Positions 11,910 to 64,000 of a stretch of 64,000 bases of DNA are shown one piece after another. The notes below the pieces were generated by a model. It saw only the letters and a program-made list of their open reading frames with translations, searched no databases and was not told the origin of the DNA. The DNA comes from a virus. Lineage: Duplodnaviria; Heunggongvirae; Uroviricota; Caudoviricetes. The translations under genes and the position numbers were made by a program. The stretch is taken from the IMG/VR virus record IMGVR_UViG_2541047850_000005, positions 1 to 64,000 of that record; one strand, 5' to 3'. Positions within the stretch are counted from its first letter, which is position 1. The number at the start of each line of letters is the position of its first letter.

Positions 11910-12066
11910 AGTAGGCATTACTTCTTTGTAGTGAAAAGGGGCTTGATAGTAACAAAATGGCCTTATGTCTGCCATGTGATAACAGCATTTCTCATAAATG
12001 ATTAAATGCCGTAGCTGGAGTACACTACAAGGCGACAATTGCGCAAATTAAAATAAAGGAGACGGG

Positions 12067-46930: not shown

Positions 46931-49270
46931 TTACTCTTCTACTGACTCGGTGGGGTTGTCTTTTGCTCTTCGGTCGTCGATTGCCTGCAAAGCCGCAATG
47001 ATTTCAGCCAGTGGCTTCTCCCGATACATCTCGACGATCTGCGATTTGGTGTATTTCTTGTCACCAATTTCAACTCGCCCGCTGGCGTTCTTTGGCAGGT
47101 ATCCTTCTTCCAGCATGTACTCGACGAGCGATTCGATAACGTCGAGGCCACGAGTAGGATCGAAGTAGAATTTCCAGGTGCATTTGCCATACGGTGGTGC
47201 AACTTTGTTTTTGATGCATTCTGCGCCTACGTCCTGGCCGATCTTCTCTTTACCATCCTTCATCACCGATGCACCAAGACGGATACGTACAGAAGCGTAG
47301 AACTTCGGTGAATCTCCACCTGGCGACGTAGTAGGGTCGCCAAACATTACACCGATTTTTGTGCGAACCTGATTCAAGAAGATGATGCAGGCGTTGTATT
47401 TGCGTGCCCACAAAGCCAGAGTAGGGAAGTTCGCACTTGTCGCACGAGCCAGTGCCGTATTGTCGTTCATGTTTAGCTGATCTTTGTCTTTGGCAGTGCC
47501 TTCAGCCATCTTTTCGAACTTCTCGGCTTTGGAGTTCGGAACCATAGACGCAAGTGAGTCAGCCACGATACAGATAGGTGCTGATTCAGGAATAAGCTCT
47601 TCATCACGTACCAATTTAAGAATTGTGCCGATCAACTCTACAGAGTCTTCGAAGGTATCAGGCTGCTTGTATACCCACTGACCGTCATCCTCATCTGCGT
47701 TCAGGCCATTGGCTACAGCCAGGCCAACGTCAAAACTGTTTTCATGATCGAGGAATACCGCCAGACCATCTTGTTTTTGAGCGGAGATCATCGCTGCTGT
47801 TGCAAGGAATGTGTTGTGGCTGATAATCCCGTTAGACCAGAAAGAGTGTGTTTCCGGCATCGCTACGTCGAACGTTGGTGCTTCACCTTCCTCAATAGCC
47901 ACGACTTCGTCGTAGAATAAGTTAGAGCCAATTACCGCTGCCAGTTGTGCAAACAGATGCTCGTTAAAACGATTCTTTCTGCCAATGAAGGAGACATAGA
48001 TTTCTCGCAGTTTGTCTATTCCGACACGATCGCCGCGGCCAATAACGTGGTCTACCAGAGCGTAGTCTTCACGGGTGGTCTTGGTGAGCGACTCGTAGAG
48101 TGATTTCACTAAGCCGCTGATGTGCGGAACATAGCCTGAGTAAGTGCGGTCAAAACCAATGTCCCGTTTGGTTGCCACTGATAAACGTGCCGGAGATTCG
48201 AAACCAATCGTTGACAGAAAAAGGTCGTAATTAGAGCCACTGAATGACAGCCGGTAATATGTATTTTCATAACCCGCGACGTGTTTTTCAGAGATAGTTG
48301 ACGTAATCCCCAGATTCAGGAGCATGAGGCGAATTTGCTGTAGCAGCAGCCCACTCGCGCTCACAACCTCAATGCAGCGACCACCATTGACGTGGCATTC
48401 CAGCTCAAAGTAGCCGCGAAGGAATGCAATTTGAGCCTCGCTATTGGCGCGACGCACACTCAACGGAACCTGCTTGCCAGCAGCTTTCTCATACTCCAGA
48501 CCATATTCTTTAAAAAGCAGCGAACGCACCTCTTTGCTAAACAGCACATGGTCTTCCGAGCCGTTATGTTTTCTCGTAACTGGCATCTTGTCTGATACCA
48601 GCGAAATGAGGCGGTAGTACTCATCCTTGATGAATGGATCTGTGTTAGAAAAATGCACAGAATTTTCAGAGGCCACGTATCCGTCAGCAATTAAATAGCC
48701 CATCAGTTTTGCGATATTGGCATCCAAGTGCTGATCGCCGAATTGATGTGTGCCAACCATTGAAGGAATCGTGTCGCCTACACTGATTTTTTCAGCATAC
48801 CGCCAGACGATATTGCCTAAGTCGTCAACCACACGAATTGGGTGACGGAACGTAGCCTCGATGTAACCCCCTGATGCCAGCTTAATGCGCTTGAATTTGC
48901 GACGGTTGTTCCATGTCAGGTGTGAGGTTTTCTCTATCACGCCATTTTCATTGATGAGTCCAACGTTATGCTCTACATCGCGAGTAGTGCATGTTGCTTT
49001 GTGCCCCTCAATCTCAAACAGTTCTTTCACTGTTACCATTCCACGCTCCGTCAGCAGCATGGTGTCTGCGGTAACACATTTCCCCGCACTTGGAGGACCG
49101 AATACTTCGACGATACGACCACATGGGAAACCGCCATCGTAACGACCGGAAATCGCTTTGTTTAACGGAGGAAAGCCTGTGTCAATCCAATGAGTTACTT
49201 TCTGAATTTCGTCGTTGCTACCGATTTTCTTTTTCAGAGCAAGTGCCAGTGCGGATTTTCCTTTTGCCAT
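46931..49270 (-). CDS. recA: RecA-family recombinase interrupted by a 422-aa intein
   Basis: exteins align by eye with E. coli RecA (RIVEVFGPPSAGK|T.., ..IIFLNQVRTKIGVMFGDPTTSPGGDSPKFYASVRIRL..); extein total ~357 aa. Confidence 0.85.
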   Translation of the reverse strand: MAKGKSALALALKKKIGSNDEIQKVTHWIDTGFPPLNKAISGRYDGGFPCGRIVEVFGPPSAGKCVTADTMLLTERGMVTVKELFEIEGHKATCTTRDVEHNVGLINENGVIEKTSHLTWNNRRKFKRIKLASGGYIEATFRHPIRVVDDLGNIVWRYAEKISVGDTIPSMVGTHQFGDQHLDANIAKLMGYLIADGYVASENSVHFSNTDPFIKDEYYRLISLVSDKMPVTRKHNGSEDHVLFSKEVRSLLFKEYGLEYEKAAGKQVPLSVRRANSEAQIAFLRGYFELECHVNGGRCIEVVSASGLLLQQIRLMLLNLGITSTISEKHVAGYENTYYRLSFSGSNYDLFLSTIGFESPARLSVATKRDIGFDRTYSGYVPHISGLVKSLYESLTKTTREDYALVDHVIGRGDRVGIDKLREIYVSFIGRKNRFNEHLFAQLAAVIGSNLFYDEVVAIEEGEAPTFDVAMPETHSFWSNGIISHNTFLATAAMISAQKQDGLAVFLDHENSFDVGLAVANGLNADEDDGQWVYKQPDTFEDSVELIGTILKLVRDEELIPESAPICIVADSLASMVPNSKAEKFEKMAEGTAKDKDQLNMNDNTALARATSANFPTLALWARKYNACIIFLNQVRTKIGVMFGDPTTSPGGDSPKFYASVRIRLGASVMKDGKEKIGQDVGAECIKNKVAPPYGKCTWKFYFDPTRGLDVIESLVEYMLEEGYLPKNASGRVEIGDKKYTKSQIVEMYREKPLAEIIAALQAIDDRRAKDNPTESVEE
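47813..49078 (-). other. intein with LAGLIDADG homing-endonuclease domain inserted in the RecA P-loop (between K64 and T+1)
   Basis: starts with Cys (CVTADTML), ends ..IISHN followed by Thr; LAGLIDADG-like motifs LMGYLIADGYV and AFLRGYFELECH. Confidence 0.75.
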
Positions 49271-52121: not shown

Positions 52122-52246
52122 GTGCTTTCCTTTTTACTTATCATCTTATATTGATTATATCATTGTGATGATAAGGCAAGGAGTTCGAGGATAGGGGATA
52201 TGAGGGGATAAGAGAAAACATGGCCATAGAGGCCATGTTTATTGGA

Positions 52247-55200
52247 TCACGACTTAATAGTTTCTGCTACGTCGGCTAATATCGCTTCTAGTCGTTCTCC
52301 CTCTTCAGGTCTGAAGTAAAGAATGTTGGGGTTAAACCCGTAAAAGACAGTAACGTCAAGGTCTGGAAGATACTCCTTCCTGCCGACCAAATCGGATGGC
52401 TTGTTTTTGTTGTTAAACAATGCCGTTGCCCGGCTGCCACACGTCAGCACATAGGTCGGACGCACCAGATTGATCTCTTCACGTATAAAGTCGGTGAACT
52501 GGCCGATCTCGTCTTTGGTGTAGTCTTTTTCTTTGTCTTTAACCTTCTTGCAAACGCCTGTGACATAGAGATCGCCCATGCGTAAATCTCCAGCCGTCAA
52601 TAGCTTGGCCTTAAAGTCGTCGTATCCGTTCTCCATAAAGTAACCTGTTCGAGCATCATTGCCGTTCGCATTGTCCAGAATGATCATGATTTTCGGCTTA
52701 ATACCAATGCTGGGGCGGATTAGTTCATCACCTAAGCCCATTTCAGCCGCCATCCGTGTCATGAGCACGTTAATCTCAGCCGAACGTTTGGGGTTCATCT
52801 CAAACGGACGTGAGGCTTTAACTGCGTCTATGACAAGATTTCCCATCAATTCCGCTTGGTCGCGGAGACGTTCTGGATCAGTTGCTGGCAGACTACCTGG
52901 CTCGATGGATGCAAACGCACCTACTTTTCGCAGTGATTCGCGCACTCGACTATTACAGGCACGTTTCTCGACAGCTTCTTCGAATTGCGCCAGTGACTCG
53001 AATTTGCCGCCAACTTTTTCTCGCGCTCTCATGATGGCTTGGCAGCCATTCTCAGAACACCCCTTCACAGCAGAGAAGGGTGCATACAGAACCTGGCTGC
53101 CATCTTCAAGCGTGCGGATCTCGATTCGGTTAGATGACACGTTAACGTCTGGTGGCAATACGCGAATACCATAGGTCAGCGCATCTTTAACCAGCCCTTG
53201 GTGTTTATCTTCGCCAAGAATAGTGAGAGCAGCAGCGAAAAACTCTGCGGGATAATGAGTTTTCAACCACATAGATTGATAACTGATTAAGGAGTAAGCA
53301 ACAGAGTGTGATTTGTTGAACTGGTAGGCACCATTTTTTTCGAATGCGGTCCAGATCTCCTTCGCTTTCATCTCTGATAGGCCAGGATGTGACGCTGTAA
53401 CGCGTACTGCGTTTATAGGTAGTTTTGCGCCGTGCTCAAGTGCCTCTTCGACAGTTTTCAGAGTTCCGTCTTCGCATTTAAAATGTTCCGCACGGTGAAT
53501 GCGCTGTGTAGTGCCATCTTCCAGCTCAACGTCTATCCAGCCAGCTTGAGCCTGAACGATGAACTTCTCGCCCATGCTCTTCATTTTTTCCATGTTCTTC
53601 TTACCGATTGCGGAACGCACACCGTCAGCTTCAGCCATTGTGAAGCCGGCAAGCAATCGAGTCGCGTTCATCGTCTGTTCCTGATAGAGAATCACGCCAT
53701 TTGTTTCCGCGGTAAGTTCATCAAGAACGGGGTGTAATGATTCCGGCGTCATAAAGCCTTTGGCGACAGAAACATAGTCATCCAACATGCCTGATTGAAT
53801 TGGCCCCGGCCGGAAGAGCGCAGTTGTAGCGACGACCGTTTTAAAGCTCATTGGCTCAATTCCACCACCTAAATCTTTAAGCAGCTTGCGCATTGGGCCT
53901 GATTCAAGCTGGAAAACACCTTGAGTGTACCCAGCAGCAAAACCATCCAGTACCTTGCGATCTTCAAGAGAAATGGCATCAAGATTGATATCCTCACCTG
54001 TGTTCTCTTTAATGTAGCGTTTTGCACTATCGAGCAAATCGAGAGTCGCCAGGCCAAGTACATCCAGCTTAATTAGGCCCATAGCCTCGCAGTAACGCTT
54101 GTCAAATGCGATACAACGCGCGTCACCACGGCGTTCAACCGGTGTACGTTCTGTCAAGGGAACACCTGCTACGATCATCCCTGCCGCATGTCTGCCAAAG
54201 CCACGCATAATGCTTTGTAACTTACAGGCTGCATTGAATGCATCAGGATATTTTGTCGCGTATTTGTCGAGACTTGCTAGTTGTTCGCGCAGCTCTTCCA
54301 ATGGAAGGCTATCATCCTCGACGTTCTTCAGTTCTTTTGATACCGCCATATCCGCAGCATCGACACCGTAAATACGCGCAGTGTCACGCAGCGCAGAAGC
54401 AGCGCCCAGATAGGTGAAGTTCGGAATACCGGCAACGTAATCTTCGCCATAGCGTTCATTCAGATACTCGATCACCTCATGACGACGTGCCTGACTGAAG
54501 TCTAAATCAGCATCCGGCAAGTCGAGACGCTCAGGGTTGATGAAACGCTCAAACAGAAGACCGTGACGGATTGGGTCGACGTTGGTTATGCCTATGCACC
54601 ACGCCACCAGAGAACCGGCAGAGGAACCACGACCAGGCCCAACGGGAATGCCAGTTTCACGACTATGATTCATCAGATCGCGCACCATCAGGAAGTAACC
54701 ACAGAATCCCAGGCGAGTCAGCGTGTCCATTTCGTACTTTAGCCGCTCAACATAAACCCTGTTCTCAGAAGCAGGTGGTGTGTATCCAAACTCTTTTGTG
54801 GTAAGACGTTTACGCAGCCCTGCAACAGCCAGTTTCATCAGCGTTGCAGGTTCGTCGTCTGCCATCTTGGGCAGTGCTGGTGGCAATTCATGCCAGCGCC
54901 ATGTGCAGGCATCGATAATGGTATCCTGCGTTGTTGAGGCCATTGCAGCTGTTACCGGCACATCCATGCGAACGGAGAAGGCTTTAAGCGACTCAAGGAG
55001 ATGGCGGCGACCATTGACGGCGTTATCTCGCTGGTGGGGGATACGCAGACGATGCGGCTGGTCGATTTTTATGTTGTTCGTAACCATGTGCGCAATGTCT
55101 TTAATGTCTGCATCGTCGATCGATTCGTAATAAGCGGGATAGAACGCTACTGGCTCTATTTTCAGTGCGCTGGCTACTTTCATCGCTCGGACGTTAATCT

Positions 55201-55765
55201 GGTCGTAGAATGGGGTAGGGTGCGGATAAACCACGCTATAGAAGTTGTCTTTTCCACCCGCTGTAATCAGTGTGCTTATGATTTTTGCAAAATCGTTGCG
55301 TTGGAACACGCTACCGATGTCGGAAGTGAGCAGGATGATGTTGCCTTTGGCATATGTAGAAACCAACTGTTCGAGCGAGAGACGCGGTACAAAGTAGAAC
55401 TGTTCTCGTGTGTTGGCCACCGTCATTAGTTCGCAGATGTCGCGATATCCTTGCTCATTTTTAATTAGAGCGGTAAACGAGTAGTTACGTCCCCGCTCTA
55501 ATGATTCCATACATCTCATAGATTCTTTAGCAAGTTTAGCACGGTGCTCGTATGTGGGATCATCAACAATGTTTAGTTTCACACCACAAATAACCGCCAT
55601 GTCGTCACCAGCGGCACGTTGTAGTGGAATAACGCTCGCAATATTCATGCTATCTGCTGAAATTACAGCGGTGTAGCCAGCTTCTCTGGCAATCTTCACC
55701 GCGTTTTCTGCTTTTAAAGCCGACTCCCCAAGTGAGAAGTCAGTTCGAACCATCAGTGCCTTCAT
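52247..55765 (-). CDS. dnaE: DNA polymerase III alpha-like (DnaE-type, C-family) replicative polymerase
   Basis: 1172 aa; N-terminal PHP-domain-like region, large multi-domain architecture typical of DnaE; the island encodes its own DnaQ-like exonuclease. Confidence 0.85.
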   Translation of the reverse strand: MKALMVRTDFSLGESALKAENAVKIAREAGYTAVISADSMNIASVIPLQRAAGDDMAVICGVKLNIVDDPTYEHRAKLAKESMRCMESLERGRNYSFTALIKNEQGYRDICELMTVANTREQFYFVPRLSLEQLVSTYAKGNIILLTSDIGSVFQRNDFAKIISTLITAGGKDNFYSVVYPHPTPFYDQINVRAMKVASALKIEPVAFYPAYYESIDDADIKDIAHMVTNNIKIDQPHRLRIPHQRDNAVNGRRHLLESLKAFSVRMDVPVTAAMASTTQDTIIDACTWRWHELPPALPKMADDEPATLMKLAVAGLRKRLTTKEFGYTPPASENRVYVERLKYEMDTLTRLGFCGYFLMVRDLMNHSRETGIPVGPGRGSSAGSLVAWCIGITNVDPIRHGLLFERFINPERLDLPDADLDFSQARRHEVIEYLNERYGEDYVAGIPNFTYLGAASALRDTARIYGVDAADMAVSKELKNVEDDSLPLEELREQLASLDKYATKYPDAFNAACKLQSIMRGFGRHAAGMIVAGVPLTERTPVERRGDARCIAFDKRYCEAMGLIKLDVLGLATLDLLDSAKRYIKENTGEDINLDAISLEDRKVLDGFAAGYTQGVFQLESGPMRKLLKDLGGGIEPMSFKTVVATTALFRPGPIQSGMLDDYVSVAKGFMTPESLHPVLDELTAETNGVILYQEQTMNATRLLAGFTMAEADGVRSAIGKKNMEKMKSMGEKFIVQAQAGWIDVELEDGTTQRIHRAEHFKCEDGTLKTVEEALEHGAKLPINAVRVTASHPGLSEMKAKEIWTAFEKNGAYQFNKSHSVAYSLISYQSMWLKTHYPAEFFAAALTILGEDKHQGLVKDALTYGIRVLPPDVNVSSNRIEIRTLEDGSQVLYAPFSAVKGCSENGCQAIMRAREKVGGKFESLAQFEEAVEKRACNSRVRESLRKVGAFASIEPGSLPATDPERLRDQAELMGNLVIDAVKASRPFEMNPKRSAEINVLMTRMAAEMGLGDELIRPSIGIKPKIMIILDNANGNDARTGYFMENGYDDFKAKLLTAGDLRMGDLYVTGVCKKVKDKEKDYTKDEIGQFTDFIREEINLVRPTYVLTCGSRATALFNNKNKPSDLVGRKEYLPDLDVTVFYGFNPNILYFRPEEGERLEAILADVAETIKS

Positions 55766-55945
55766 GTGTTTTTACCTTTCTGGTTTTTTTGATTTTGTCA
55801 TTTGGGAAGCCTACGAACTTCCCATGCATCGAAATCGCAACTTCTTTTGCTGATTGGTGACAATAAGGCTTGTCTGGACACACCAGACAAGCCTTACCAG
55901 TTTCAGAAGCAGCGATAAGAGAGCCGAAACATCCTTTACGCACGA

Positions 55946-57181
55946 TCAACCAAATATTTTTTGAACAACTTCACGAGCCGCTTGTGCAGAAGCTGAAGGG
56001 AGTTTGTTAATGAAAGAACGCTCAATACCTGTCACAAAATCGCCTCGCATCATTCCAATCTTGGCCGACAACAAAAGCTCACGAGGCCCAATCGGTTGGC
56101 TGATATTGTGTTCTTCGTATCCATCGCGAACGATACCGGCAAACTTAACCATCTTTTCAGCGTATTCATCCACGATGCCGGCATTTATCAACATGTTGAT
56201 CTCTGCCTCTTTGCTCATGTATTTCACATTCGAAACGATGCCAAAACGCGAAAAGTTAGCGGCGTTCTGGATGTTTGTACCCTGGTACAAGCCGGTTTCA
56301 TCACCAGATCCGTTCGTGTTGCCAGTGCCAATGAAAGCAAACCGTTCATGCGGAGTAATGCGACGCCATTCTGGAGTCGCCTCTTTGATGACCAACGCTT
56401 CACCTTCCAGCACTGGCTGATACACGCCAAGAATCTGTGGAAACGCAAAGTCGTATTCATCCGCGAGGTAAACCCAGCCATGCTTCATTGCGAGCGCAAG
56501 CAAACCAGGCTCGAAATACGTAGAGCCATCACGCGCCAGAATTTGTCCCGTAACATGAGCCTCTTCCATTGATGCTGTATGTTGGGCACGGATTAACGGA
56601 CGATTGAGCAAAGCACATAGTTGTGTAGGCAATGAAGATTTGCCTGTTCCTGCATGACCCCACAAATAGCCTGGTATGCCAAGTTCAAGCATCATGAAAA
56701 TGTCTTTGATCAGTTCGAAGTCGCCATATACGTATCCCTTCTTCACTTCTGGAACGAACTCTGGAAACGGCGTATTGACGTTGACGCTAACCATGAGCGG
56801 CGTCCCACGTTTTGTTCCGAGTTCTTTCACCGTTACATTTAGCATTTCGTGAGCTGCGACCAGATCTGTCTTGTACTCAACTGTGCCTGTATAGCCTGGG
56901 CTATTGGTCACGCCAGATGATTTGGCCATTTCGCTTTTTTGCTCGGCACGTTTAGCTTGAATTGCATCAAGTGCCTTTTTCGATAGCGTTGGCTCATCTG
57001 GAAACTGCGTTGTGTACATTTTCAGTACGGTGTCAGGATCGGCATCTTTTACTGACTCAGGAATGCCCTCGCAATTACCATTGGCTACATGGGACTTAAA
57101 ATAGTGAAATGATTTTCCGCACCACTTGCAAACAAGGTAATCAGAAGGATTTTTTTCATTTTGCAGTGCAGTAGTAGTCAT
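55946..57181 (-). CDS. CobS-like MoxR-family AAA+ ATPase with N-terminal Cys/His zinc-ribbon-like segment
   Basis: Walker A ..GHAGTGKSS.., Walker B ..VYLADEYD..; N-terminal CKWCGK..H..C. Confidence 0.7.
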   Translation of the reverse strand: MTTTALQNEKNPSDYLVCKWCGKSFHYFKSHVANGNCEGIPESVKDADPDTVLKMYTTQFPDEPTLSKKALDAIQAKRAEQKSEMAKSSGVTNSPGYTGTVEYKTDLVAAHEMLNVTVKELGTKRGTPLMVSVNVNTPFPEFVPEVKKGYVYGDFELIKDIFMMLELGIPGYLWGHAGTGKSSLPTQLCALLNRPLIRAQHTASMEEAHVTGQILARDGSTYFEPGLLALAMKHGWVYLADEYDFAFPQILGVYQPVLEGEALVIKEATPEWRRITPHERFAFIGTGNTNGSGDETGLYQGTNIQNAANFSRFGIVSNVKYMSKEAEINMLINAGIVDEYAEKMVKFAGIVRDGYEEHNISQPIGPRELLLSAKIGMMRGDFVTGIERSFINKLPSASAQAAREVVQKIFG

Positions 57182-57276
57182 GCGTTTTTCCTTTGTTTTC
57201 TAATGAGCTTTCAACTTCTTATATAAATATACCATCAAATATCGTAAGTGATTACTTATCATTAAGGCTATTCTAA

Positions 57277-59385
57277 TCACTTCAAAATGATACGAGATAG
57301 TTCAGTAACTACAGATGAACCAAGACTATCAACGCTCGTTACCAGGGCATGGTTTGCGTAAAATCTCTCCGGTGCGTCAGTCATGATGCCAATTGCCATC
57401 AAATCAATGTCAGTCTGCGTTTCAATTTGCTTCGCAACCGAACGCAAATGAGCGTCAAAACCTCTCCCAACAGCCAACGGCTCGCCATCATTCAGAACAA
57501 GCATGATCTTCCTGTCCTCCATGCGACCGGAAAATAACGATGCAAGGCTGGCTATGCTTTCACCATCCACGTTATTAAGAAGTGGGAATGTGTAGCCTAC
57601 GCACCCCATACGTGAGCGAACTTCGCGAGAATTTACCTTTTCATTCCAATTTTTGATGATAGGTAGCATTAAAGATTCAAAGCGAGAGAACTCATACTTG
57701 ACAGCCTTAAGTTCTCCTGCCGCCATATGACTACCAAATGTAGTGAAGCCGGTGATAATGTTGGGAACATTTATTCGATCAAGGGCATCGGCGATGGTAT
57801 ATGCACTTGCAAGAGCCAATTGTATCGTTATACCACTCATTGAACCTGATAAATCAATCACTTGTTGAACACAGGCGTTAACGGCTTTAGATTCTTCTTT
57901 TTTACGAAACACGCGATCATCATTCATTGCTAATCTGTAGATACTAGAACCATGAATGCGCCCCCGACGCTGGCCCGGTATAAACTGAACTCTGTTTCTG
58001 CTTGCTATTGCTCGCTCCAGGTCTTTTGCCAGCGTCGACGAAACACCTGACGAAAGATGCTTTTCAATATATTTGTCGAAGAGCTGGTTGCCTTCAGGAA
58101 CGATGCGATAGCGGCTGATTGGATATCCTCCTAAATCAATATCGGAGAATGTTTTAATAAGCCGTTTGATATGGGCTTCTGCCTGATCAATCGAGCCGAT
58201 GAAGTCGTATGAGCGATTGTATGGCCTGTATTCACTTTTCGAGCTTTCTGTTAACTCGCTTTTAATCGTTTCGGATAGAGCATCTTCTGTCATGCCTCCG
58301 ACTTCATCTTCTATGCTATCCAGCTCCTCTAAAGCCTCTTCCAGACTCATTTTTGACGTAGTTGGAATATCTGAAGAGCCGTCTTCTGTCGTTTTTCTTT
58401 TTTCGTGGTCAGCGGTTAATGATTCTGACGCCGCGTTATCAGAAGCATCAGAATCTGATACCTCTTTATCATTTTCTGTATCATCGAATATTGTTTCTGA
58501 TGATTCAGAATTATCTGAATCATCACTGTCGTTATTATCATGTTTGTGCTTACTATGTGATTCTGATTTGATAGATTTGTGATTATCTAACAATGAGGGT
58601 GTCTCATGATCTTCGTTGTCTTCATTGTTTTCTCCAGAGGCATCCGTCTGGTCAGCGTCTGAAGGATCGGAAGTTTTTCCCGGAGCTGACTCCTTACCTT
58701 TGCTTTCACTTTCAGTGTCTTTGAGGATCTTAGCTATGGTCGCAGCCACCTTTACACAATCCTCGGTGCAAGACATGTTACGCACGGCCACATCGATACC
58801 ATGTTCTTTTAATAATGAAATTGGTTTCTCAATGACAGGCCAATATTCATCCATGAAATCTACGAACGGTGCTTGGCCATCCCAGGCTCTTACAACCGGA
58901 CAGAGAAAGAAGTTTAGAAAAAGCGCGCGCTGATCTTTGCCACAATAAGCAATAGCCTCTGAAGCCTTTGGTTTAAAGACTTTTTCGATTATAAGGCGCT
59001 GAGTTGCCATCAGATTACGTCTTGTTCCGTTAAAGACCTGACCCATTTTTCGCTCGATGAACACGTCTTCTAAGGCATTCCATAGCGACCAGGAAGGAAC
59101 GCGTCCTTTTTCTTTCATTTTGTTGGACACACGAATATCGGTAAACAAAATGTGAGCAACCTCATGATCGAGAAATCCGCGCACAGCATTCATCAATGCC
59201 GGTGTTGCGTTATCCGGGATTGATGGGATGTTTACGAGAATTGGCTCTCCATCATCATTATAGCGTACATAAGCGTCGTCCCCTCGTTCTGCAACAGGGA
59301 TGTTTTTACCTGAAAGGAGAGCGACTACTCGTTTTACACTGTCACGGAAGTCCTGAACCTCTTTGATGGAACGTTTTTTAGACAT
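57277..59385 (-). CDS. CobT-like protein with C-terminal von Willebrand factor A (vWA) domain and acidic low-complexity central region
   Basis: MIDAS-like motif ..VIDLSGSMSG.., D/E/S-rich linker, 702 aa; adjacent to the MoxR-like ATPase. Confidence 0.7.
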   Translation of the reverse strand: MSKKRSIKEVQDFRDSVKRVVALLSGKNIPVAERGDDAYVRYNDDGEPILVNIPSIPDNATPALMNAVRGFLDHEVAHILFTDIRVSNKMKEKGRVPSWSLWNALEDVFIERKMGQVFNGTRRNLMATQRLIIEKVFKPKASEAIAYCGKDQRALFLNFFLCPVVRAWDGQAPFVDFMDEYWPVIEKPISLLKEHGIDVAVRNMSCTEDCVKVAATIAKILKDTESESKGKESAPGKTSDPSDADQTDASGENNEDNEDHETPSLLDNHKSIKSESHSKHKHDNNDSDDSDNSESSETIFDDTENDKEVSDSDASDNAASESLTADHEKRKTTEDGSSDIPTTSKMSLEEALEELDSIEDEVGGMTEDALSETIKSELTESSKSEYRPYNRSYDFIGSIDQAEAHIKRLIKTFSDIDLGGYPISRYRIVPEGNQLFDKYIEKHLSSGVSSTLAKDLERAIASRNRVQFIPGQRRGRIHGSSIYRLAMNDDRVFRKKEESKAVNACVQQVIDLSGSMSGITIQLALASAYTIADALDRINVPNIITGFTTFGSHMAAGELKAVKYEFSRFESLMLPIIKNWNEKVNSREVRSRMGCVGYTFPLLNNVDGESIASLASLFSGRMEDRKIMLVLNDGEPLAVGRGFDAHLRSVAKQIETQTDIDLMAIGIMTDAPERFYANHALVTSVDSLGSSVVTELSRIILK

Positions 59386-59943
59386 GGCTAATCCTTTGTT
59401 ATGAAAACAAATTATTTACTAGTATGTTTAATGTAGCACTGCGCGAACAGGGAACTAAGCCATTCGCGCAGGTAGCAGAGGGGTTAACAGGTTCTGACGG
59501 CTAAAGAGCCAGAGCCGGTATTGATAAGCGTGAAGCGTTTGTTATTAAGTAGGAATATAAAGGCTGTTGCGTCATGCATACCAACCTGAATCTGCTCATT
59601 TGGTAATTCGGTGAGAATGTCAGCTACACATTCATCAGCTAATTTTTCAACGTGTCCGATCTCAAGAGTGATTAGGCTGGAAATAGTTGTTTTCATTCAA
59701 TCAATCCATTCTAACTTAAAATATGGTAGGGAGTACTATTAAATCTTATATCATAATTGAACTTATCTATATCATATCTGAGTTAGTTTTGTTACATGTT
59801 ATTAGTCGTTTTTCTCCATTAATGAATGCTGATTGGTTAATATTTGTGCCTGTAGAAAAAATGATTATATCTTTACAACCCTAACCTTTGATGTAATATC
59901 GGTAAGCACTTACCAGAGAGTTTAACGCGCAAAGGTCGCAATA

Positions 59944-60330
59944 ATGTCTGACAAAAACATTGAATTTATAGAAAGTCGCTATGCTGCTTTTATCGCAGGG
60001 CTGATTGAATCCTCACCTATGAGTCAGGCCCAAATAGCCAGACTTATTGGTTATAAAAATGCCAACAACCTTTCTTTAATTAAAAGTGGTAAAATTCCTT
60101 TGCCTATCGATAAGGTTCGTCCGCTGGCGTTGGCGCTGGGTATTGAGCCAAGTCGTCTTATGATGATGGTGCTGGAAGAACGCCAACCTGAACTCGCAGC
60201 ATTTTTATACAAAGAAGGCACCGCTCCTCTTAACGAGGACGAAAAACAGGTTCTTGCTGCATATAACGAGCGATTCGGTAAAGAGAAAGGCGCATCACAA
60301 AAGGTTGTTGAGGCCATAAAGTCTCTATGA
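59944..60330 (+). CDS. HTH (XRE/Cro-CI-like) DNA-binding protein
   Basis: ..SQAQIARLIGYKNANNLSLIKSGK.. helix-turn-helix; convergent with and overlapping the integrase 3' end. Confidence 0.65.
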   Translation: MSDKNIEFIESRYAAFIAGLIESSPMSQAQIARLIGYKNANNLSLIKSGKIPLPIDKVRPLALALGIEPSRLMMMVLEERQPELAAFLYKEGTAPLNEDEKQVLAAYNERFGKEKGASQKVVEAIKSL

Positions 60331-61428
60331 AAAATTTAGACGAATAAGCTCTGTTGATAGACGATCTCCCTTGAATTTGTGGTCAATTTCGTCTAAATCC
60401 GGTTGCTCTACGATTGATGCGATGTACGTTGAGAAACTTTCTAAGGCGTCTCGCATCTCGTCCATATAATCGTGCCGGTCGTAGACCCGATCTATCCCCT
60501 CAAGACTGTGGTTCATGATTTTGCGTGATACCTCCTGGCTTATGCCTAATGCTGGGAAGTAACTACGCGCAGTACGACGCAAATCTCGGGGTGTAAATGG
60601 CGCAAGCTCCATCAGTTCTGGTCGTTCCAGAATACGACGTAATGCCTGGGCTATTGCCACTTTAGACATAGGAAGGTCTTTCCCGATTTTTTTATTCGAA
60701 GGCACGAGCCACTGGCTGTCTTTACCGTATTCGAACAACTCTTCAATGCATGTGCGCATTAATGTGCTTAAAGGCAGCGAATGCTCACGTGCTGACTTGT
60801 TTCTCTTGCCTTGATTCCAAACTCCACGCTTAAGATTGAACTCACTTTTTTTAGCCCTCAGTACTTCGTCAGGTCGTCTTGCTGATACAAGACACAGCCT
60901 GGCCGCCCATTTTGTACCAGCGCACACATTGAAGTAGTCCCATATATTCCAGAACACCCATACCTCTGCGTCGGTCAGCTTCCGCTCGCGAGGTGTGGGC
61001 TTTGCGCCACCGGCAACTTTGTTTAGTGACATATCGTTTAACGGTGACACGTCTATCATCCCCTGGAAGGCGCACCAGCTAAGGAACTGCTTCATCAGAG
61101 AGAAAACGCGGCGGCCCATAACAATTTTGCCATCCAGTATTAGTGGGTTGACCAGTTGGTTCACCATGAACCTATTAATGTCACTTACTTTTACATCGGC
61201 AATGTGCGGCAAAACATGTATCAAAATACAATGAACAGCGATCTCTGGCCGACGTCTGGTTATCAGCAGAGATAAGCGAGTGAATAACATGAATGCGTCC
61301 GAGAATTTCATATCATTGCTAACCTGCGAGATCATAACGGCCTGCATTTGAGATGCTCTTTCGAGATACTCAATCGCCTCTTTTGAGGTGTTCTCAGCAG
61401 CGCGTGCTCTGTCAAAGCTATTTTTCAT
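60325..61428 (-). CDS. int: tyrosine recombinase / phage-type integrase
   Basis: C-terminal catalytic region ..FTPRDLRRTARSYF..RKIMNHSLEGIDRVYDRHDYMDE.. (R..H-x-x-R..H/Y pattern of tyrosine recombinases). Confidence 0.8.
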   Translation of the reverse strand: MKNSFDRARAAENTSKEAIEYLERASQMQAVMISQVSNDMKFSDAFMLFTRLSLLITRRRPEIAVHCILIHVLPHIADVKVSDINRFMVNQLVNPLILDGKIVMGRRVFSLMKQFLSWCAFQGMIDVSPLNDMSLNKVAGGAKPTPRERKLTDAEVWVFWNIWDYFNVCAGTKWAARLCLVSARRPDEVLRAKKSEFNLKRGVWNQGKRNKSAREHSLPLSTLMRTCIEELFEYGKDSQWLVPSNKKIGKDLPMSKVAIAQALRRILERPELMELAPFTPRDLRRTARSYFPALGISQEVSRKIMNHSLEGIDRVYDRHDYMDEMRDALESFSTYIASIVEQPDLDEIDHKFKGDRLSTELIRLNFS

Positions 61429-61960: not shown

Positions 61961-62743
61961 TTATTTTGAGATATATAAAGTTTTGTGTGGCTGTTTATTT
62001 TTCAGGTAAAATTGTTTAGGTGTCATATTGAAGTACCTCTTAAACACTGAGATAAAGTATGCTTCACTTGTATATCCTAAACACTTGGCGACAAAACCAA
62101 CTTTCCCAGTGTTGTGTTCTAATAGTTGTAACGCGTTTTTCATTTTAGTATCTAAAGTTAACTGTGTAAAAGTATAATTTTCCTCTTTTAGTCTTCTCCT
62201 CAATGAGGATTCTGAAGTATAAAGAGCGGAAGCCATTTCGCCTATACGCCATTGTTGAGTTAAGTTTTTTTCTAAGATGGATGATACTTTTTCTGAAATC
62301 AAAATTACTGGCATTGACTGCTTAAAGAAGTTTGTAAGTTCATAGGTGTCTATGCGGCTGAATAAAAATAACAGTATGCTAACGCGTCTAAAACCTGATT
62401 TTTCATTTTTAAGTTGTCTAAAGGCTAACTCTTCTTCCGTGTTCAGACTTGGTCCGATAATTAATGGTGGTTTGTTGTTGGTCGGGTGTATATTAACGCA
62501 GGAGAGAAATTTCACAATAATTCCAATATCCTCATCTTGAATAGTATAAATTTCGTCAGCAGAAACACGTCCGCTCAAACCAACAATTTTACTCTTTTTG
62601 CTAATAATGAAAAATGTATTTTTTAAAAGTTCTATCTCTTGATGCTCATTCAAATAAATTTTTATTGATTGATGTTTGACATAAACTAAGGTGTATTTAT
62701 TAAATATCATGTTTTTAAATGGCAACATGGTATTTTCCATCAC
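61961..62743 (-). CDS. AraC/XylS-family transcriptional regulator
   Basis: C-terminal double HTH signature (..IGEMASALYTSESSLRRRLKEE.. and ..VGFVAKCLGYTSEAYFISVFKRYFNMTPKQF..). Confidence 0.8.
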   Translation of the reverse strand: MMENTMLPFKNMIFNKYTLVYVKHQSIKIYLNEHQEIELLKNTFFIISKKSKIVGLSGRVSADEIYTIQDEDIGIIVKFLSCVNIHPTNNKPPLIIGPSLNTEEELAFRQLKNEKSGFRRVSILLFLFSRIDTYELTNFFKQSMPVILISEKVSSILEKNLTQQWRIGEMASALYTSESSLRRRLKEENYTFTQLTLDTKMKNALQLLEHNTGKVGFVAKCLGYTSEAYFISVFKRYFNMTPKQFYLKNKQPHKTLYISK

Positions 62744-62799
62744 GCAAATTTTTATATTACCACACCATGATTATGATGTGGTACATACTATATGAATAT

Positions 62800-64000
62800 C
62801 TATTCGCAAACTAGGGAGAGTCGACTTATCTTGCTTTGGTTTGCTTTTAATTCAAATCGTGCGGAGCATTGGCTTTCTTTATTGTCTCCCCATTGGACAT
62901 GCATTTCACCTCTGTCAGGCATACCACTCATCCATACCTGCCCATCGTTCGAAACAATGCTTGTTACACTGATATCTCCGGCTTCTCCTTTTAACGAGGC
63001 AATAGCGCCAAAAGGAACGAAATTACCATTTTTTCTAATCAAAGTAATAAGTGCCTTATGTCCAGATACTACATTAAATTTGGCGTGAACTAACGCCCCA
63101 CGGGAAGGTACTACCGTTAAATCAGATTTAATTATTTCAGTTTCTTCATTAACCTTGTTTACGTCTAGAGATATTCCATTTTTTCTATAGGGTGAAAGGT
63201 AAGGAACCACAGCATATCCATTGAAATCTGTGCTAATACCAATACCTCTTTTTACTTTGATGTCTTCTACGCCATTAGTGTCGATCAATGCATTAGCTCC
63301 GTCAAGAGATAACGGCTGAGACAATACAATCCCTTTTTTGTGTACAACTACTCCACCGCTAATGCCAAATTGTAATTGTTTTGAGTTATGTTGATGTGAC
63401 ACTGTTGATTGTATCTCTCCCTTGGAGGATTTATATCTCAGCGTTGCATTACCTGAACTGGAGTCACGACTACCGCTATGATAACCTTCCATGAAACTAT
63501 AATATAATTGCTGGTCTATAAAATAACCACTCACACCTGCTTGTGTATTTGTGCTATTTCCTGAATTGTATACATTTGTTGTCAATGATGCATTACTATA
63601 GTTCGAAAAAGAACTAAAAGGTACTGAAACTGAAAGATAAACAGATTTATCTATATCTTCATATTGTGGTTGTTTATTATAGTTTAATGACAAGGATGTA
63701 AATACCTTTTTTACAGGAAACGAATACGATAGCCGAAATTGGCGACTATCTTTAGCATTTCTATAAGTAGTCCAGTCTGAGGATAAGGTCAATTGGTTAG
63801 TATTGCCAATACTTTGTTGCAACTGAGTGGTAATTCTATTTATTTTATTAAATTTGGAATTATTACCAATCTTCATCTGTTGATAATCATTAAAAGAATA
63901 GAAGTTCTGTGAATTATAAAGTTGCTCTGTCAAATTCAAATAAGTACCTGTAGACTCAAATCCTTTCGCAAACATTAGTCGAGTTACAGAACCATTTTCA
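62800..64000 (-). CDS. fimbrial usher protein, C-terminal portion (gene continues beyond window end)
   Basis: C-terminal usher signature ..VPFGAIASLKGEAGDISVTSIVSNDGQVWMSGMPDRGEMHVQWGDNKESQCSARFEL..; the track ORF is open to the window edge. Confidence 0.8.
   Translation of the reverse strand, partial: ENGSVTRLMFAKGFESTGTYLNLTEQLYNSQNFYSFNDYQQMKIGNNSKFNKINRITTQLQQSIGNTNQLTLSSDWTTYRNAKDSRQFRLSYSFPVKKVFTSLSLNYNKQPQYEDIDKSVYLSVSVPFSSFSNYSNASLTTNVYNSGNSTNTQAGVSGYFIDQQLYYSFMEGYHSGSRDSSSGNATLRYKSSKGEIQSTVSHQHNSKQLQFGISGGVVVHKKGIVLSQPLSLDGANALIDTNGVEDIKVKRGIGISTDFNGYAVVPYLSPYRKNGISLDVNKVNEETEIIKSDLTVVPSRGALVHAKFNVVSGHKALITLIRKNGNFVPFGAIASLKGEAGDISVTSIVSNDGQVWMSGMPDRGEMHVQWGDNKESQCSARFELKANQSKISRLSLVCE

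What the first reader, a model, noticed from the sequence alone, without database searches (positions are those of the whole stretch)
55946..59385. CobS/CobT-like MoxR AAA+ ATPase plus vWA-domain pair next to the integrase
A MoxR-type AAA+ ATPase (Walker A GHAGTGKSS) with an N-terminal Cys/His zinc-ribbon-like segment is followed by a 702-aa protein with an acidic low-complexity linker and a C-terminal vWA domain with MIDAS motif (DLSGSMSG). Such pairs are annotated as cobaltochelatase subunits in phages and phage-plasmids, but no cobalamin pathway is present and their function in mobile elements is unknown. MoxR-vWA modules have been proposed as chaperone-like or conflict systems; their position at the integrase-proximal edge of the island is typical for accessory cargo.
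Basis: partly seen in the sequence, partly recalled or inferred. Interest (0 to 1): 0.6.

Follow-up and report, generated by a model that had tools for sequence, protein, structure and literature searches.

The report
Phage CobS/CobT-like ATPase–peptidase pair
The two genes are real and are the familiar phage "cobS/cobT" pair, but here they are the conserved leading genes of the DNA-replication operon of an SSU5-type phage-plasmid rather than island cargo, and their sequence suggests an ATP-driven protein-remodelling and cutting machine rather than a vitamin B12 enzyme.

Summary

The window is 100% identical to Escherichia phage PhiR41_1, an SSU5-like phage-plasmid. All 256 E. coli matches are on plasmids, so there is no integrated island.

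The order CobT→CobS→DnaE→UvsY-like→gp32→5'-3' exonuclease holds in 80 diverse viral contigs with about 40-46% CobS identity. The pair also sits inside the replication clusters of Vibrio phage ICP2 and cyanophage S-PM2. It is core, not cargo, and it matches no known defence family.

It is not a cobaltochelatase orthologue:
- It scores far below the NCBIfam cut-offs.
- The element carries no CobN.
- The gene order is reversed relative to cellular cobS→cobT.
- The CobT N-domain keeps an intact HExxH zinc-peptidase motif in 148 of 150 family representatives. None of 120 cellular CobT have it.
- CobS carries an extra conserved N-terminal zinc finger.

The most likely function is an ATP-driven remodeller and peptidase acting during phage DNA replication. 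Its client is unknown.

The gene family is already described in the literature. Interest is moderate, because its function is still open and it is routinely mislabelled as a B12 metabolic gene.

The parts
57277..59385 (-). Phage-type CobT-like protein, 702 aa: M48-like zincin N-domain, acidic linker, shaft-like segment and a vWA/MIDAS domain
   Evidence: ORF. Pfam CobT_C 5e-81 and CobT 9e-27. PHROG 1576 5e-298. Solved CobT 9uka/21vt.
58714..59385 (-). CobT N-domain, residues 1-224: one helix, a three-stranded sheet and a helical bundle, with a peptidase-M48-like fold
59152..59166 (-). HEVAH (residues 74-78), a zincin HExxH motif, followed by invariant N103, E106, D107 and E111
   Evidence: Invariant in alignments A2 and A3. 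HExxH is present in 148 of 150 cluster representatives and in 0 of 120 cellular CobT.
58246..58713 (-). Acidic low-complexity linker, residues 225-380
   Evidence: 31% D+E and net charge -36. Its length varies among homologues.
57877..57996 (-). Segment equivalent to the CobT 'shaft' (residues ~464-503) that enters the CobS ring pore in the solved chelatase
   Evidence: It aligns to Q373-R413 of 9uka_G. It carries the family-invariant residues G471, G475, H478, D489, R491-R494 and K496. The shaft role comes from the preprint and is an inference here.
57280..57876 (-). vWA domain with a complete MIDAS site: D511, S513, S515, N605 and D633. The DLSGS motif lies at 57841..57855.
   Evidence: Invariant columns in A2. 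It aligns with the MIDAS residues D422, S424, S426, N518 and D546 of solved CobT.
55946..57181 (-). Phage-type CobS-like AAA+ ATPase, 411 aa
   Evidence: ORF. Pfam AAA_5 2e-15. PHROG 249 1e-106. Solved CobS 9ujv 4e-26, then midasin, CbbQ and NorQ. 30% identity to S. meliloti CobS over 282 aa.
57062..57139 (-). N-terminal zinc-finger-like module of CobS (C18, C21, H26, H31, C37), absent from cellular CobS
   Evidence: Conserved in A1 and A5. AlphaFold2 gives a hairpin plus helix at pLDDT about 94. 13 of 23 members give sub-threshold Pfam ROS_MUCR hits and 7 of 23 give C2H2 hits. The alignment to cellular CobS starts only at residue 141.
56633..56659 (-). Walker A GHAGTGKSS (residues 175-183). 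Walker B LADEYD lies at 56450..56467.
   Evidence: G175, G178, G180, K181, D241 and E242 are invariant.
55740..55949 (-). 69-aa Cys-rich ORF that overlaps the CobS stop codon and the DnaE start. It may be a third component or a DnaE accessory.
   Evidence: PHROG 6337 6e-45. Its G-C-F-G-S...C-x2-C-x5-C module aligns with the N-terminus of a ~170-aa protein found just upstream of DnaE in L082, L084, L087 and L088.
52247..55765 (-). Phage DnaE (Pol III alpha) with a C-terminal UDG-like domain. It is the next large gene of the same transcription unit.
   Evidence: Pfam PHP, DNA_pol3_alpha, finger and HHH_6. UDG at 1e-3. Found downstream of CobS in 66 of 66 loci.
52216..52240 (-). Terminator-like hairpin directly after DnaE
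   Evidence: A 10-bp stem found. This is a consensus scan only.
59484..59696 (-). 70-aa ORF upstream of CobT on the same strand, possibly the first gene of the unit
   Evidence: PHROG 2627 3e-39. Its function is unknown.
59944..60330 (+). Divergently transcribed HTH regulator, a candidate repressor of the operon
   Evidence: PHROG 8 7e-12 and weak Pfam HTH_19. A divergent homologue lies about 2.7-3.2 kb upstream of CobS in 47 of 70 loci.

Best explanation
This is the phage-type 'CobS/CobT' pair of an SSU5-like phage-plasmid. It is not a cobalt chelatase.

By homology with the solved CobS6-CobT motor, the CobS-like protein should form an ATP-driven AAA+ ring. That ring would grip the conserved shaft segment of the CobT-like adaptor. 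The adaptor would hold a client protein between its vWA/MIDAS domain and its N-terminal M48-like domain.

In the phage version the N-domain keeps a complete HExxH...E zinc-peptidase signature. The client is therefore probably remodelled, cleaved, or both. The phage CobS also has an added N-terminal zinc finger that may tether the machine to DNA or to a partner.

The pair is co-transcribed as the leading genes of the phage replication/recombination operon, ahead of DnaE, a UvsY-like protein, a gp32-like SSB, a 5'-3' exonuclease and RecA. It therefore most likely acts early in the lytic programme, on a phage or host protein needed for or obstructing phage DNA replication.

What is shown: homology, motifs, fold, synteny and the plasmid location. 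What is inferred: the ring and shaft mechanism, peptidase activity, timing and the class of client.
For: Identity of the element:
- 100% match to phage PhiR41_1, with all E. coli matches on plasmids.

Homology to the motor:
- Solved CobS 4e-26 and CobT 6e-15. A profile of the phage family reaches 7e-44.
- Invariant Walker A, Walker B and MIDAS residues, and a conserved shaft-equivalent segment.
- Mechanism of the solved complex from the preprint.

Peptidase signature:
- HExxH in 148 of 150 family representatives against 0 of 120 cellular CobT, which carry [SA][MI]AL[RK] at that position.
- Intact HExxH also in cyanophage S-PM2, Vibrio phage ICP2 and a Rhizobium phage.
- Iyer et al. 2021 independently described a MoxR plus vWA pair with an N-terminal metallopeptidase in T4-like jumbo phages.

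Replication linkage:
- CobT lies directly upstream of CobS in 79 of 80 IMG/VR loci. The 80th locus has no sequence upstream of CobS.
- DnaE lies within 5 kb downstream in 66 of 66 loci and the 5'-3' exonuclease in 54 of 54.
- The same order is seen.
- In ICP2 the pair is followed about 0.9 kb downstream, after two small ORFs, by primase, helicase and PolA.
- In S-PM2 it lies between gp46 and gp45, followed by gp44, gp62 and gp43.

Not a chelatase:
- NCBIfam CobS 87 bits against a cut-off of 559, and CobT 61 against 759.
- No CobN is annotated in records 1-50000 and 68368-107998 of PhiR41_1, and the window has no ORF over 779 aa other than DnaE. The element's ribonucleotide reductase is class Ia, which does not need B12.
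- Cellular gene order is cobS→cobT, the reverse of the phage order.
Against: - No experiment on any phage CobS/CobT was found in the literature.
- The nickie-like Pseudomonas phage phiK7B1 keeps the pair in the same synteny but has SEISK in place of HExxH. Proteolysis therefore cannot be indispensable to the core function.
- Synteny shows co-regulation, not a shared pathway. Early operons also carry host-takeover and anti-defence genes.
- Most DnaE-encoding phages lack the pair: 1,186 records have DnaE against 494 with CobS. It is not a general polymerase accessory.
- The promoter scan was uninformative.
Confidence: 0.55

Rival explanations
1. It is a true auxiliary metabolic gene pair. Phage CobS/CobT would replace or supplement host subunits and work with host CobN to insert cobalt and raise cobalamin supply. 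This is the usual annotation and the proposal of Liu et al. 2021.
For: The pair is homologous to solved CobS and CobT. The proposal is published (PMC8651126). The MIDAS site and the shaft segment that serve CobN handling are conserved.
Against: - Scores are far below the equivalog cut-offs.
- No CobN is annotated in the parts of the element examined, and its ribonucleotide reductase is the B12-independent class Ia type.
- From established knowledge, not tested here: E. coli, Shigella, Salmonella, Klebsiella, Yersinia and V. cholerae have no aerobic CobN pathway. E. coli makes no corrin ring, and Salmonella uses CbiK.
- The N-domain keeps a peptidase motif that all 120 sampled true CobT have lost.
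- The pair has a constant place in replication operons.
Confidence: 0.06
2. It is a virion-assembly chaperone and co-chaperone pair with a processing peptidase. Iyer et al. 2021 proposed this for T4-like jumbo phages by analogy with the MoxR and vWA proteins needed for tail development in Acidianus two-tailed virus.
For: The proposal is published for the same architecture (PMC7824862). MoxR-class ATPases with vWA partners are assembly chaperones in several systems.
Against: In every lineage examined the pair lies among replication and recombination genes, not among head or tail genes. In this element the nearest annotated tail-fibre genes lie about 17 kb from the pair.
Confidence: 0.13
3. It is a host-takeover or counter-defence device. 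An early-expressed ATP-driven protease would remove a host defence or regulatory protein. This is the offensive version of the first reader's 'conflict' idea.
Against: - No PADLOC hit, although that library covers defence rather than counter-defence.
- The sequences are strongly conserved across hosts from Enterobacteria to Rhizobium and cyanobacteria, with little of the rapid turnover typical of conflict genes.
- It lacks the VMAP and effector architecture.
- The ArdC and Acr similarities are at noise level.
Confidence: 0.14
4. It is a metal-cofactor insertion or enzyme-activation chaperone for a phage metalloenzyme such as class Ia RNR or the DnaE PHP domain. This would resemble NorQ/NorD, CbbQ/CbbO and CoxD/CoxE.
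For: The nearest solved relatives after CobS and midasin are CbbQ and NorQ. The element encodes RNR and a PHP-domain DnaE. The pair is co-transcribed with DnaE.
Against: Most DnaE phages lack the pair. ICP2 and S-PM2 use other polymerases. This model does not explain the retained peptidase motif.
Confidence: 0.1

Closest known systems
Viral cobST cluster, also described as a MoxR plus vWA-with-metallopeptidase pair (PHROG 249 with PHROG 1576 or 459; Liu et al. 2021, PMC8651126; Iyer et al. 2021, PMC7824862)
   Same: It has the same two proteins in the same cobT→cobS order, with HExxH, an acidic linker and vWA-MIDAS. It is a full-length PHROG match and sits in tailed-phage genomes.
   Different: The SSU5/nickie-type clade adds a conserved N-terminal zinc finger to CobS, which S-PM2 and ICP2 CobS lack. 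The constant position at the head of a DnaE-type replication operon was not found in the papers I read.
Aerobic cobaltochelatase motor CobS-CobT (EC 6.6.1.2; PDB 9ujv, 9uka, 21vt; bioRxiv 10.64898/2026.07.21.739949)
   Same: It shares the AAA_5-type ATPase core at 30% identity, the shaft segment, the vWA/MIDAS residues and the M48-like N-domain fold of CobT.
   Different: It has no CobN partner and falls below the equivalog cut-offs. The gene order is reversed. HExxH is intact here and lost in 120 of 120 cellular CobT. CobS has about 140 extra N-terminal residues.
Midasin/Rea1 and the CbbQ-CbbO and NorQ-NorD remodellers
   Same: The AAA_5 modules are the next-best solved relatives. All couple an AAA+ ring to a MIDAS/vWA domain. 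In midasin an acidic linker connects the two, which I state from prior knowledge.
   Different: Those systems carry no peptidase domain, and their clients (pre-ribosomes, Rubisco, NO reductase) are absent from this context.
vWA-MoxR ternary conflict systems (Kaur et al. 2020, PMC7159879)
   Same: Both pair an AAA+ ATPase with a vWA protein, and peptidase domains occur in some of those systems.
   Different: Those systems have a strict VMAP→MoxR→vWA order, a third VMAP or iSTAND gene and variable C-terminal effectors on the vWA protein. None of these is present here, and there is no PADLOC hit.
SSU5 supergroup phage-plasmids (SSU5, pHCM2, pKpn, pSLy3, pMT1; Pfeifer et al. 2021, PMC7969092)
   Same: The window is 100% identical to PhiR41_1 and about 74.5% identical to SSU5 over this region. 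It has 454 plasmid matches in Escherichia, Enterobacter, Yersinia, Salmonella and Citrobacter.
   Different: Nothing differs at the level of the element. The adjacent fimbrial cluster belongs to the variable shell genome described for this group.

Membership tests
Aerobic cobaltochelatase CobS/CobT (EC 6.6.1.2) | Sequence reaches the curated equivalog score (TIGR01650 CobS, TIGR01651 CobT) | tested here: not met
   CobS scores 87.2 bits against a cut-off of 558.55. CobT scores 60.8 bits against 759.05.
Aerobic cobaltochelatase CobS/CobT (EC 6.6.1.2) | A CobN catalytic subunit is available in the same genome or element | tested here: not met
   The window has no ORF over 779 aa other than DnaE. 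No CobN is annotated in the parts of PhiR41_1 examined. The absence of CobN from the E. coli host rests on established knowledge and was not tested here.
Aerobic cobaltochelatase CobS/CobT (EC 6.6.1.2) | AAA+ Walker A and B motifs and a complete vWA MIDAS site | tested here: met
   with the alignment to solved chains.
Aerobic cobaltochelatase CobS/CobT (EC 6.6.1.2) | CobT N-domain of the cellular type, with a degenerate active-site helix RGxxD-[SA][MI]AL[RK] | tested here: not met
   The window has RGFLD-HEVAH. None of 120 cellular representatives has HExxH.
Aerobic cobaltochelatase CobS/CobT (EC 6.6.1.2) | Cobalt insertion into hydrogenobyrinic acid a,c-diamide | not testable with these tools
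   This needs a biochemical assay.
Viral cobST / MoxR plus vWA-metallopeptidase pair | Full-length match to the phage families of both proteins | tested here: met
   PHROG 249 at 1e-106 covering residues 11-410. PHROG 1576 at 5e-298 covering residues 5-702.
Viral cobST / MoxR plus vWA-metallopeptidase pair | Adjacent genes on the same strand in cobT→cobS order, in a tailed-phage genome | tested here: met
Viral cobST / MoxR plus vWA-metallopeptidase pair | An N-terminal metallopeptidase (HExxH) domain fused to the vWA protein | tested here: met
   HEVAH at residues 74-78. Present in 148 of 150 representatives. The fold is M48-like.
MoxR proper / RavA-ViaA | ATPase of the MoxR (Pfam AAA_3) or RavA type, with a ViaA-type vWA partner | tested here: not met
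   Only AAA_5 is matched. The best solved relatives are CobS, midasin, CbbQ and NorQ, and no RavA appears among them.
vWA-MoxR ternary conflict systems (Kaur et al. 2020) | A third core gene (VMAP or iSTAND) in the strict order VMAP→MoxR→vWA | tested here: not met
   The order here is vWA→ATPase. The flanking ORFs are 70 aa and 69 aa, followed by DnaE.
vWA-MoxR ternary conflict systems (Kaur et al. 2020) | Variable effector domains C-terminal to the vWA domain | tested here: not met
   The vWA domain ends the protein at residue 702 in all aligned homologues.
Known anti-phage defence systems (PADLOC-DB 2.0) | A significant match to any defence-protein model | tested here: not met
   CobS gives no hit. 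CobT gives only a DrmE hit at E 0.0038 and 13.9 bits, within the low-complexity region.
SSU5-like phage-plasmid | Near-identical DNA in sequenced phage-plasmids, with extrachromosomal location | tested here: met
   100% to PhiR41_1, which is 108 kb and circular. 256 of 256 E. coli places are on plasmids. Rep3 and ParA genes are present.

The most novel reading that the evidence does not exclude
Viral 'CobST' is a DNA-tethered, ATP-driven metalloprotease machine of the phage replication apparatus. It would extract and cleave proteins bound to template DNA, or a host replication factor, much as Cdc48 works with Wss1/SPRTN.

On this reading the cellular cobaltochelatase motor CobS-CobT descends from such a protease-remodeller that lost its catalytic HExxH and was recruited to handle CobN. 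The widespread metagenomic scoring of phage cobS/cobT as a vitamin B12 auxiliary metabolic gene would then be wrong.
Probability: 0.15. Interest if true: 0.75.

Novelty: already known. Interest (0 to 1): 0.4.

Why it matters
Phage cobS/cobT is routinely reported in viromics as a cobalamin-biosynthesis auxiliary metabolic gene. It belongs to the core genome of marine cyanophages and of the very common enterobacterial SSU5/pHCM2/pMT1 phage-plasmids.

Three results argue that this label is probably wrong:
- The pair travels with replication genes in lineages that use three different polymerases.
- It occurs in an element that has no CobN.
- It keeps a peptidase active-site motif that genuine CobT has lost.

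The real function would then be an ATP-driven remodeller and protease tied to phage DNA replication. This is directly testable in E. coli with PhiR41_1 or SSU5. It would also clarify how the chelatase motor evolved.

The gene family and the peptidase-vWA architecture are already in the literature. This is a sharpening of an open question, not a discovery of a new system.

Tried and rejected
- Defence-system membership: the PADLOC scan was negative, and the architecture does not fit the vWA-MoxR ternary systems.
- DnaE-specific maturation factor: rejected. 1,186 phage records carry a DnaE homologue but only 494 carry CobS, mostly cyanophages with a family-B polymerase.
- Cellular CobT_N retrieved with a profile of the phage N-domain: this failed. 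The PDB search gave only a weak AcrIIA26 hit. I instead fetched cellular cobT genes from plasmid records, used hhalign, and ran a 120-member motif census. The hhalign probabilities are low, at 12-22%. The register is anchored by the shared RGxxD and A-x-E-x-x-x-[IV]-E motifs.
- Promoter and terminator scan: fewer promoter-like sites than in shuffled sequence, and none convincing upstream of CobT.
- Literature searches for functional, essentiality or expression data on phage cobS/cobT: nothing specific was found. One preprint on SSU5-like heteroresistance was not held in the library.
- The first related-loci scan returned only close relatives. I repeated it with a distant seed to obtain diverse loci.

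Full report

Yes. One search lists a 411-aa ORF at 55946..57181 (-) and a 702-aa ORF at 57277..59385 (-).

The 411-aa protein has these motifs:
- Walker A GHAGTGKSS at residues 175-183 and Walker B LADEYD at 239-244.
- An N-terminal Cys/His motif, C18-x2-C21-x4-H26-x4-H31.

The 702-aa protein has three features:
- HEVAH at residues 74-78.
- A linker at residues 225-380 with 31% D+E and net charge -36.
- DLSGSMSG at residues 511-518.

Family matches are far beyond chance:
- Pfam: AAA_5 at 2e-15 for the first protein; CobT_C at 5e-81 and CobT at 9e-27 for the second.
- PHROGs: family 249 ('porphyrin biosynthesis') at 1e-106 and family 1576 at 5e-298.
- Solved structures: the ATPase is closest to cobaltochelatase CobS (9ujv, 4e-26), then midasin, CbbQ and NorQ. 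The second protein is closest to cobaltochelatase CobT (21vt and 9uka).

**2. What is the element?**

- The 4-kb region is 100% identical to Escherichia phage PhiR41_1, a 108-kb circular genome. It is about 98% identical to other E. coli and Shigella phage-plasmids and 74.5% identical to Salmonella phage SSU5.
- In 5,426 complete E. coli genomes, 244 carry it. All 256 places are on plasmids and none on a chromosome.
- The annotated record and my own Pfam scans show a Rep3-type initiator, ParA, class Ia RNR, ThyA, DHFR and tail-fibre genes.
- This is therefore an SSU5-supergroup phage-plasmid, not an integrated island.
- The low-GC AraC and fimbrial-usher genes beyond the integrase match the PapC/PapD-type shell genes reported for this group (PMC7969092). 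They are the actual cargo.

**3. Surroundings and conservation**

On the minus strand the order is:
- a 70-aa ORF;
- CobT-like;
- CobS-like;
- a 69-aa Cys-rich ORF that overlaps both neighbours;
- DnaE;
- a terminator-like hairpin;
- a UvsY-like protein;
- a gp32-like SSB;
- a 5'-3' exonuclease;
- an intein-containing RecA.

An HTH gene is transcribed divergently upstream.

The same order recurs in distant relatives with about 45% CobS identity:
- Environmental phage contigs of roughly 95-100 kb, and a Photobacterium chromosome.
- Pseudomonas phage phiK7B1 of the genus Nickievirus.
- Rhizobium phage RHph_N1_10.

I then examined 80 diverse IMG/VR loci with 39-46% CobS identity to the window:
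- CobT lies directly upstream on the same strand in every locus that has upstream sequence.
- DnaE lies within 5 kb downstream in 66 of 66 loci.
- The 5'-3' exonuclease lies downstream in 54 of 54 loci.

Two unrelated lineages with other polymerases show the same theme:
- In Vibrio podophage ICP2 the CobT-CobS pair is followed about 0.9 kb downstream, after two small ORFs, by primase, helicase and PolA.
- In the T4-like cyanophage S-PM2 the 'peptidase' (CobT-like) and CobS lie between gp46 and gp45, followed by gp44, gp62, regA and gp43.

The pair is therefore a conserved member of replication and recombination modules, not cargo. It is not a general DnaE accessory either: 1,186 phage records have a DnaE homologue, but only 494 have CobS, and most of those are cyanophages.

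**4. How it differs from the real chelatase**

a) The NCBIfam equivalog models are missed by a wide margin, 87 against 559 bits and 61 against 759 bits.

b) The window has no ORF over 779 aa other than DnaE. No CobN is annotated in the parts of PhiR41_1 I examined, records 1-50000 and 68368-107998. The element's RNR is the B12-independent class Ia type. That E. coli lacks the aerobic CobN pathway is established knowledge and was not tested here.

c) Cellular operons read cobS→cobT. The phage reads cobT→cobS.

d) The N-domain of the phage protein carries D73, H74, E75, H78, N103, E106, D107 and E111, all invariant in the alignments.
- A HMMER search of 1.84 billion representatives found 1,135 relatives of this domain. 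Of the best 150, 148 have HE[VIC][AGS]H near residue 70.
- In cellular CobT the aligned position reads RGxxD-[SA][MI]AL[RK]. None of 120 cluster representatives has HExxH.
- The AlphaFold2 model of the domain (pLDDT 90.7) has one helix, a three-stranded sheet and a helical bundle. This is the same layout as the crystal structure of cellular CobT_N, which its authors call peptidase-M48C-like.
- The motif is also intact in S-PM2, ICP2 and the Rhizobium phage. It is replaced by SEISK in phiK7B1.

e) Phage CobS has about 140 extra N-terminal residues.
- These contain a conserved zinc-finger-like module, predicted as a hairpin plus helix at pLDDT about 94.
- In 23 homologues, 13 give sub-threshold hits to Pfam ROS_MUCR and 7 to a C2H2 finger.

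**5. Mechanism**

The cryo-EM preprint on CobSTN reports the following:
- CobS forms a hexameric ring.
- A CobT 'shaft' (Q373-R413) enters the ring pore on nucleotide binding.
- CobT_N binds the small subdomain of CobS.
- The client CobN sits between CobT_N and the MIDAS face of the vWA domain.

The phage proteins keep the ATPase core to its last residue. They also keep all five MIDAS residues and a highly conserved segment that aligns with the shaft.

I therefore infer the same ring, shaft and adaptor architecture. The difference is that the client-facing N-domain here looks catalytically competent. The most economical reading is an ATP-driven remodeller and peptidase that acts on an unknown client while the replication operon is expressed. 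My confidence is about 0.55.

The loss of HExxH in nickie-like phages shows that remodelling or adaptor function, rather than cleavage, may be the indispensable part.

**6. Rivals**

- Cobalamin metabolic gene with host CobN (Liu et al. 2021): unlikely here, for the reasons in section 4. About 0.06.
- Virion-assembly chaperone with processing peptidase (Iyer et al. 2021): the architecture fits, but the genomic position argues against it. About 0.13.
- Early host-takeover or counter-defence protease: not excluded. Support comes only from position and from noise-level similarity to ArdC and AcrIIA26. About 0.14.
- Metal-insertion chaperone for a phage enzyme, like NorQD or CbbQO: about 0.1.
- Defence or vWA-MoxR ternary conflict system: membership features were tested and not met.

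**7. Comparison with what is known, and novelty**

- The family is already described. Viral cobST clusters are reported across tailed viruses (PMC8651126).
- A MoxR plus vWA-with-metallopeptidase pair is reported in T4-like jumbo phages (PMC7824862).
- PHROGs holds both families, and GenBank often labels cyanophage CobT 'peptidase'.
- The sequence itself is identical to a deposited phage.
- Three things were not found in the papers I could read: the quantified contrast of 148/150 against 0/120 for the active-site motif, the constant position in replication modules across polymerase types, and the CobS zinc finger of the SSU5/nickie clade.
- The literature still states that the function of phage cobS is uncertain (PMC11288001).

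**8. Verdict**

The family assignment is right. 'Island-edge accessory cargo or conflict system' is not supported.
- Novelty class: already known.
- Interest: 0.4. This is an ordinary, widespread phage gene pair whose usual B12 annotation is probably wrong, and whose function is now sharply testable in E. coli.

Noticed in passing
window 55740..55949 (-): A 69-aa ORF with a TTG start overlaps the CobS stop by 4 nt and the DnaE start by 26 nt. Its G-C-F-G-S-x10-C-x2-C-x5-C module aligns with the N-terminus of a ~170-aa protein found immediately upstream of DnaE in distant relatives (L082, L084, L087 and L088). The enterobacterial version seems to be a truncated Cys4 module (PHROG 6337).
   Followed up: partly
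window 46931..49270 (-): The 779-aa RecA homologue is interrupted by an intein with a LAGLIDADG homing-endonuclease domain (Pfam RecA, Intein_splicing and LAGLIDADG_3).
   Followed up: partly
window 9876..12038 (-): The phage-plasmid encodes a full-length methionyl-tRNA synthetase with a C-terminal tRNA-binding domain (Pfam tRNA-synt_1g 5e-166).
   Followed up: no
window 52247..52885 (-), the C-terminus of DnaE: The phage DnaE carries a C-terminal uracil-DNA-glycosylase-like domain. Pfam UDG is at 1e-3 here, but it is a confident hit in relatives. This fusion marks the whole ~100-kb phage clade.
   Followed up: partly
window 61961..63975 (-): An AraC-family regulator and a fimbrial usher fragment with GC of 0.34-0.37 lie next to the integrase. 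This is the real accessory cargo of the phage-plasmid.
   Followed up: partly
CobT N-domain, residues ~93-140 (window ~58966..59109): The family profile gives a weak hit (E 0.007) to the anti-CRISPR AcrIIA26 (PDB 9zq6_B) over the N-x-x-E-D-x-x-I-E helix. This may be chance, or AcrIIA26 may derive from such a domain.
   Followed up: no
L087 8941..9130 (Pseudomonas phage phiK7B1): The annotated CobS start (phiK7B1_059) is probably too far downstream. An in-frame GTG start adds 'VSDKIKCEICGEEVHSIANHLKTAH', which is the conserved zinc finger. The CobT of the same phage has SEISK in place of HExxH.
   Followed up: yes
window 59697..59943: This is the AT-rich divergent intergenic region between the 70-aa ORF and the HTH gene. 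It contains repeated GATATGATATAGATAAG and TATGATATAAGAT-like words that may be operators. The consensus scan found no convincing sigma-70 promoter on the minus strand.
   Followed up: no
L082 11182..11856 and L088 10209..10844: In environmental relatives and in Rhizobium phage RHph_N1_10, a sigma-70 region-2-like protein is inserted between CobS and DnaE. It is absent from the window.
   Followed up: no
window 60325..61428 (-) and L082, L094, L096, L098, L120, L126, L130, L136, L145: A tyrosine recombinase about 3.4-4.7 kb upstream of CobS recurs in several distant relatives. The 'integrase' neighbour is therefore a semi-conserved feature of the clade rather than a marker of an island edge.
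   Followed up: partly
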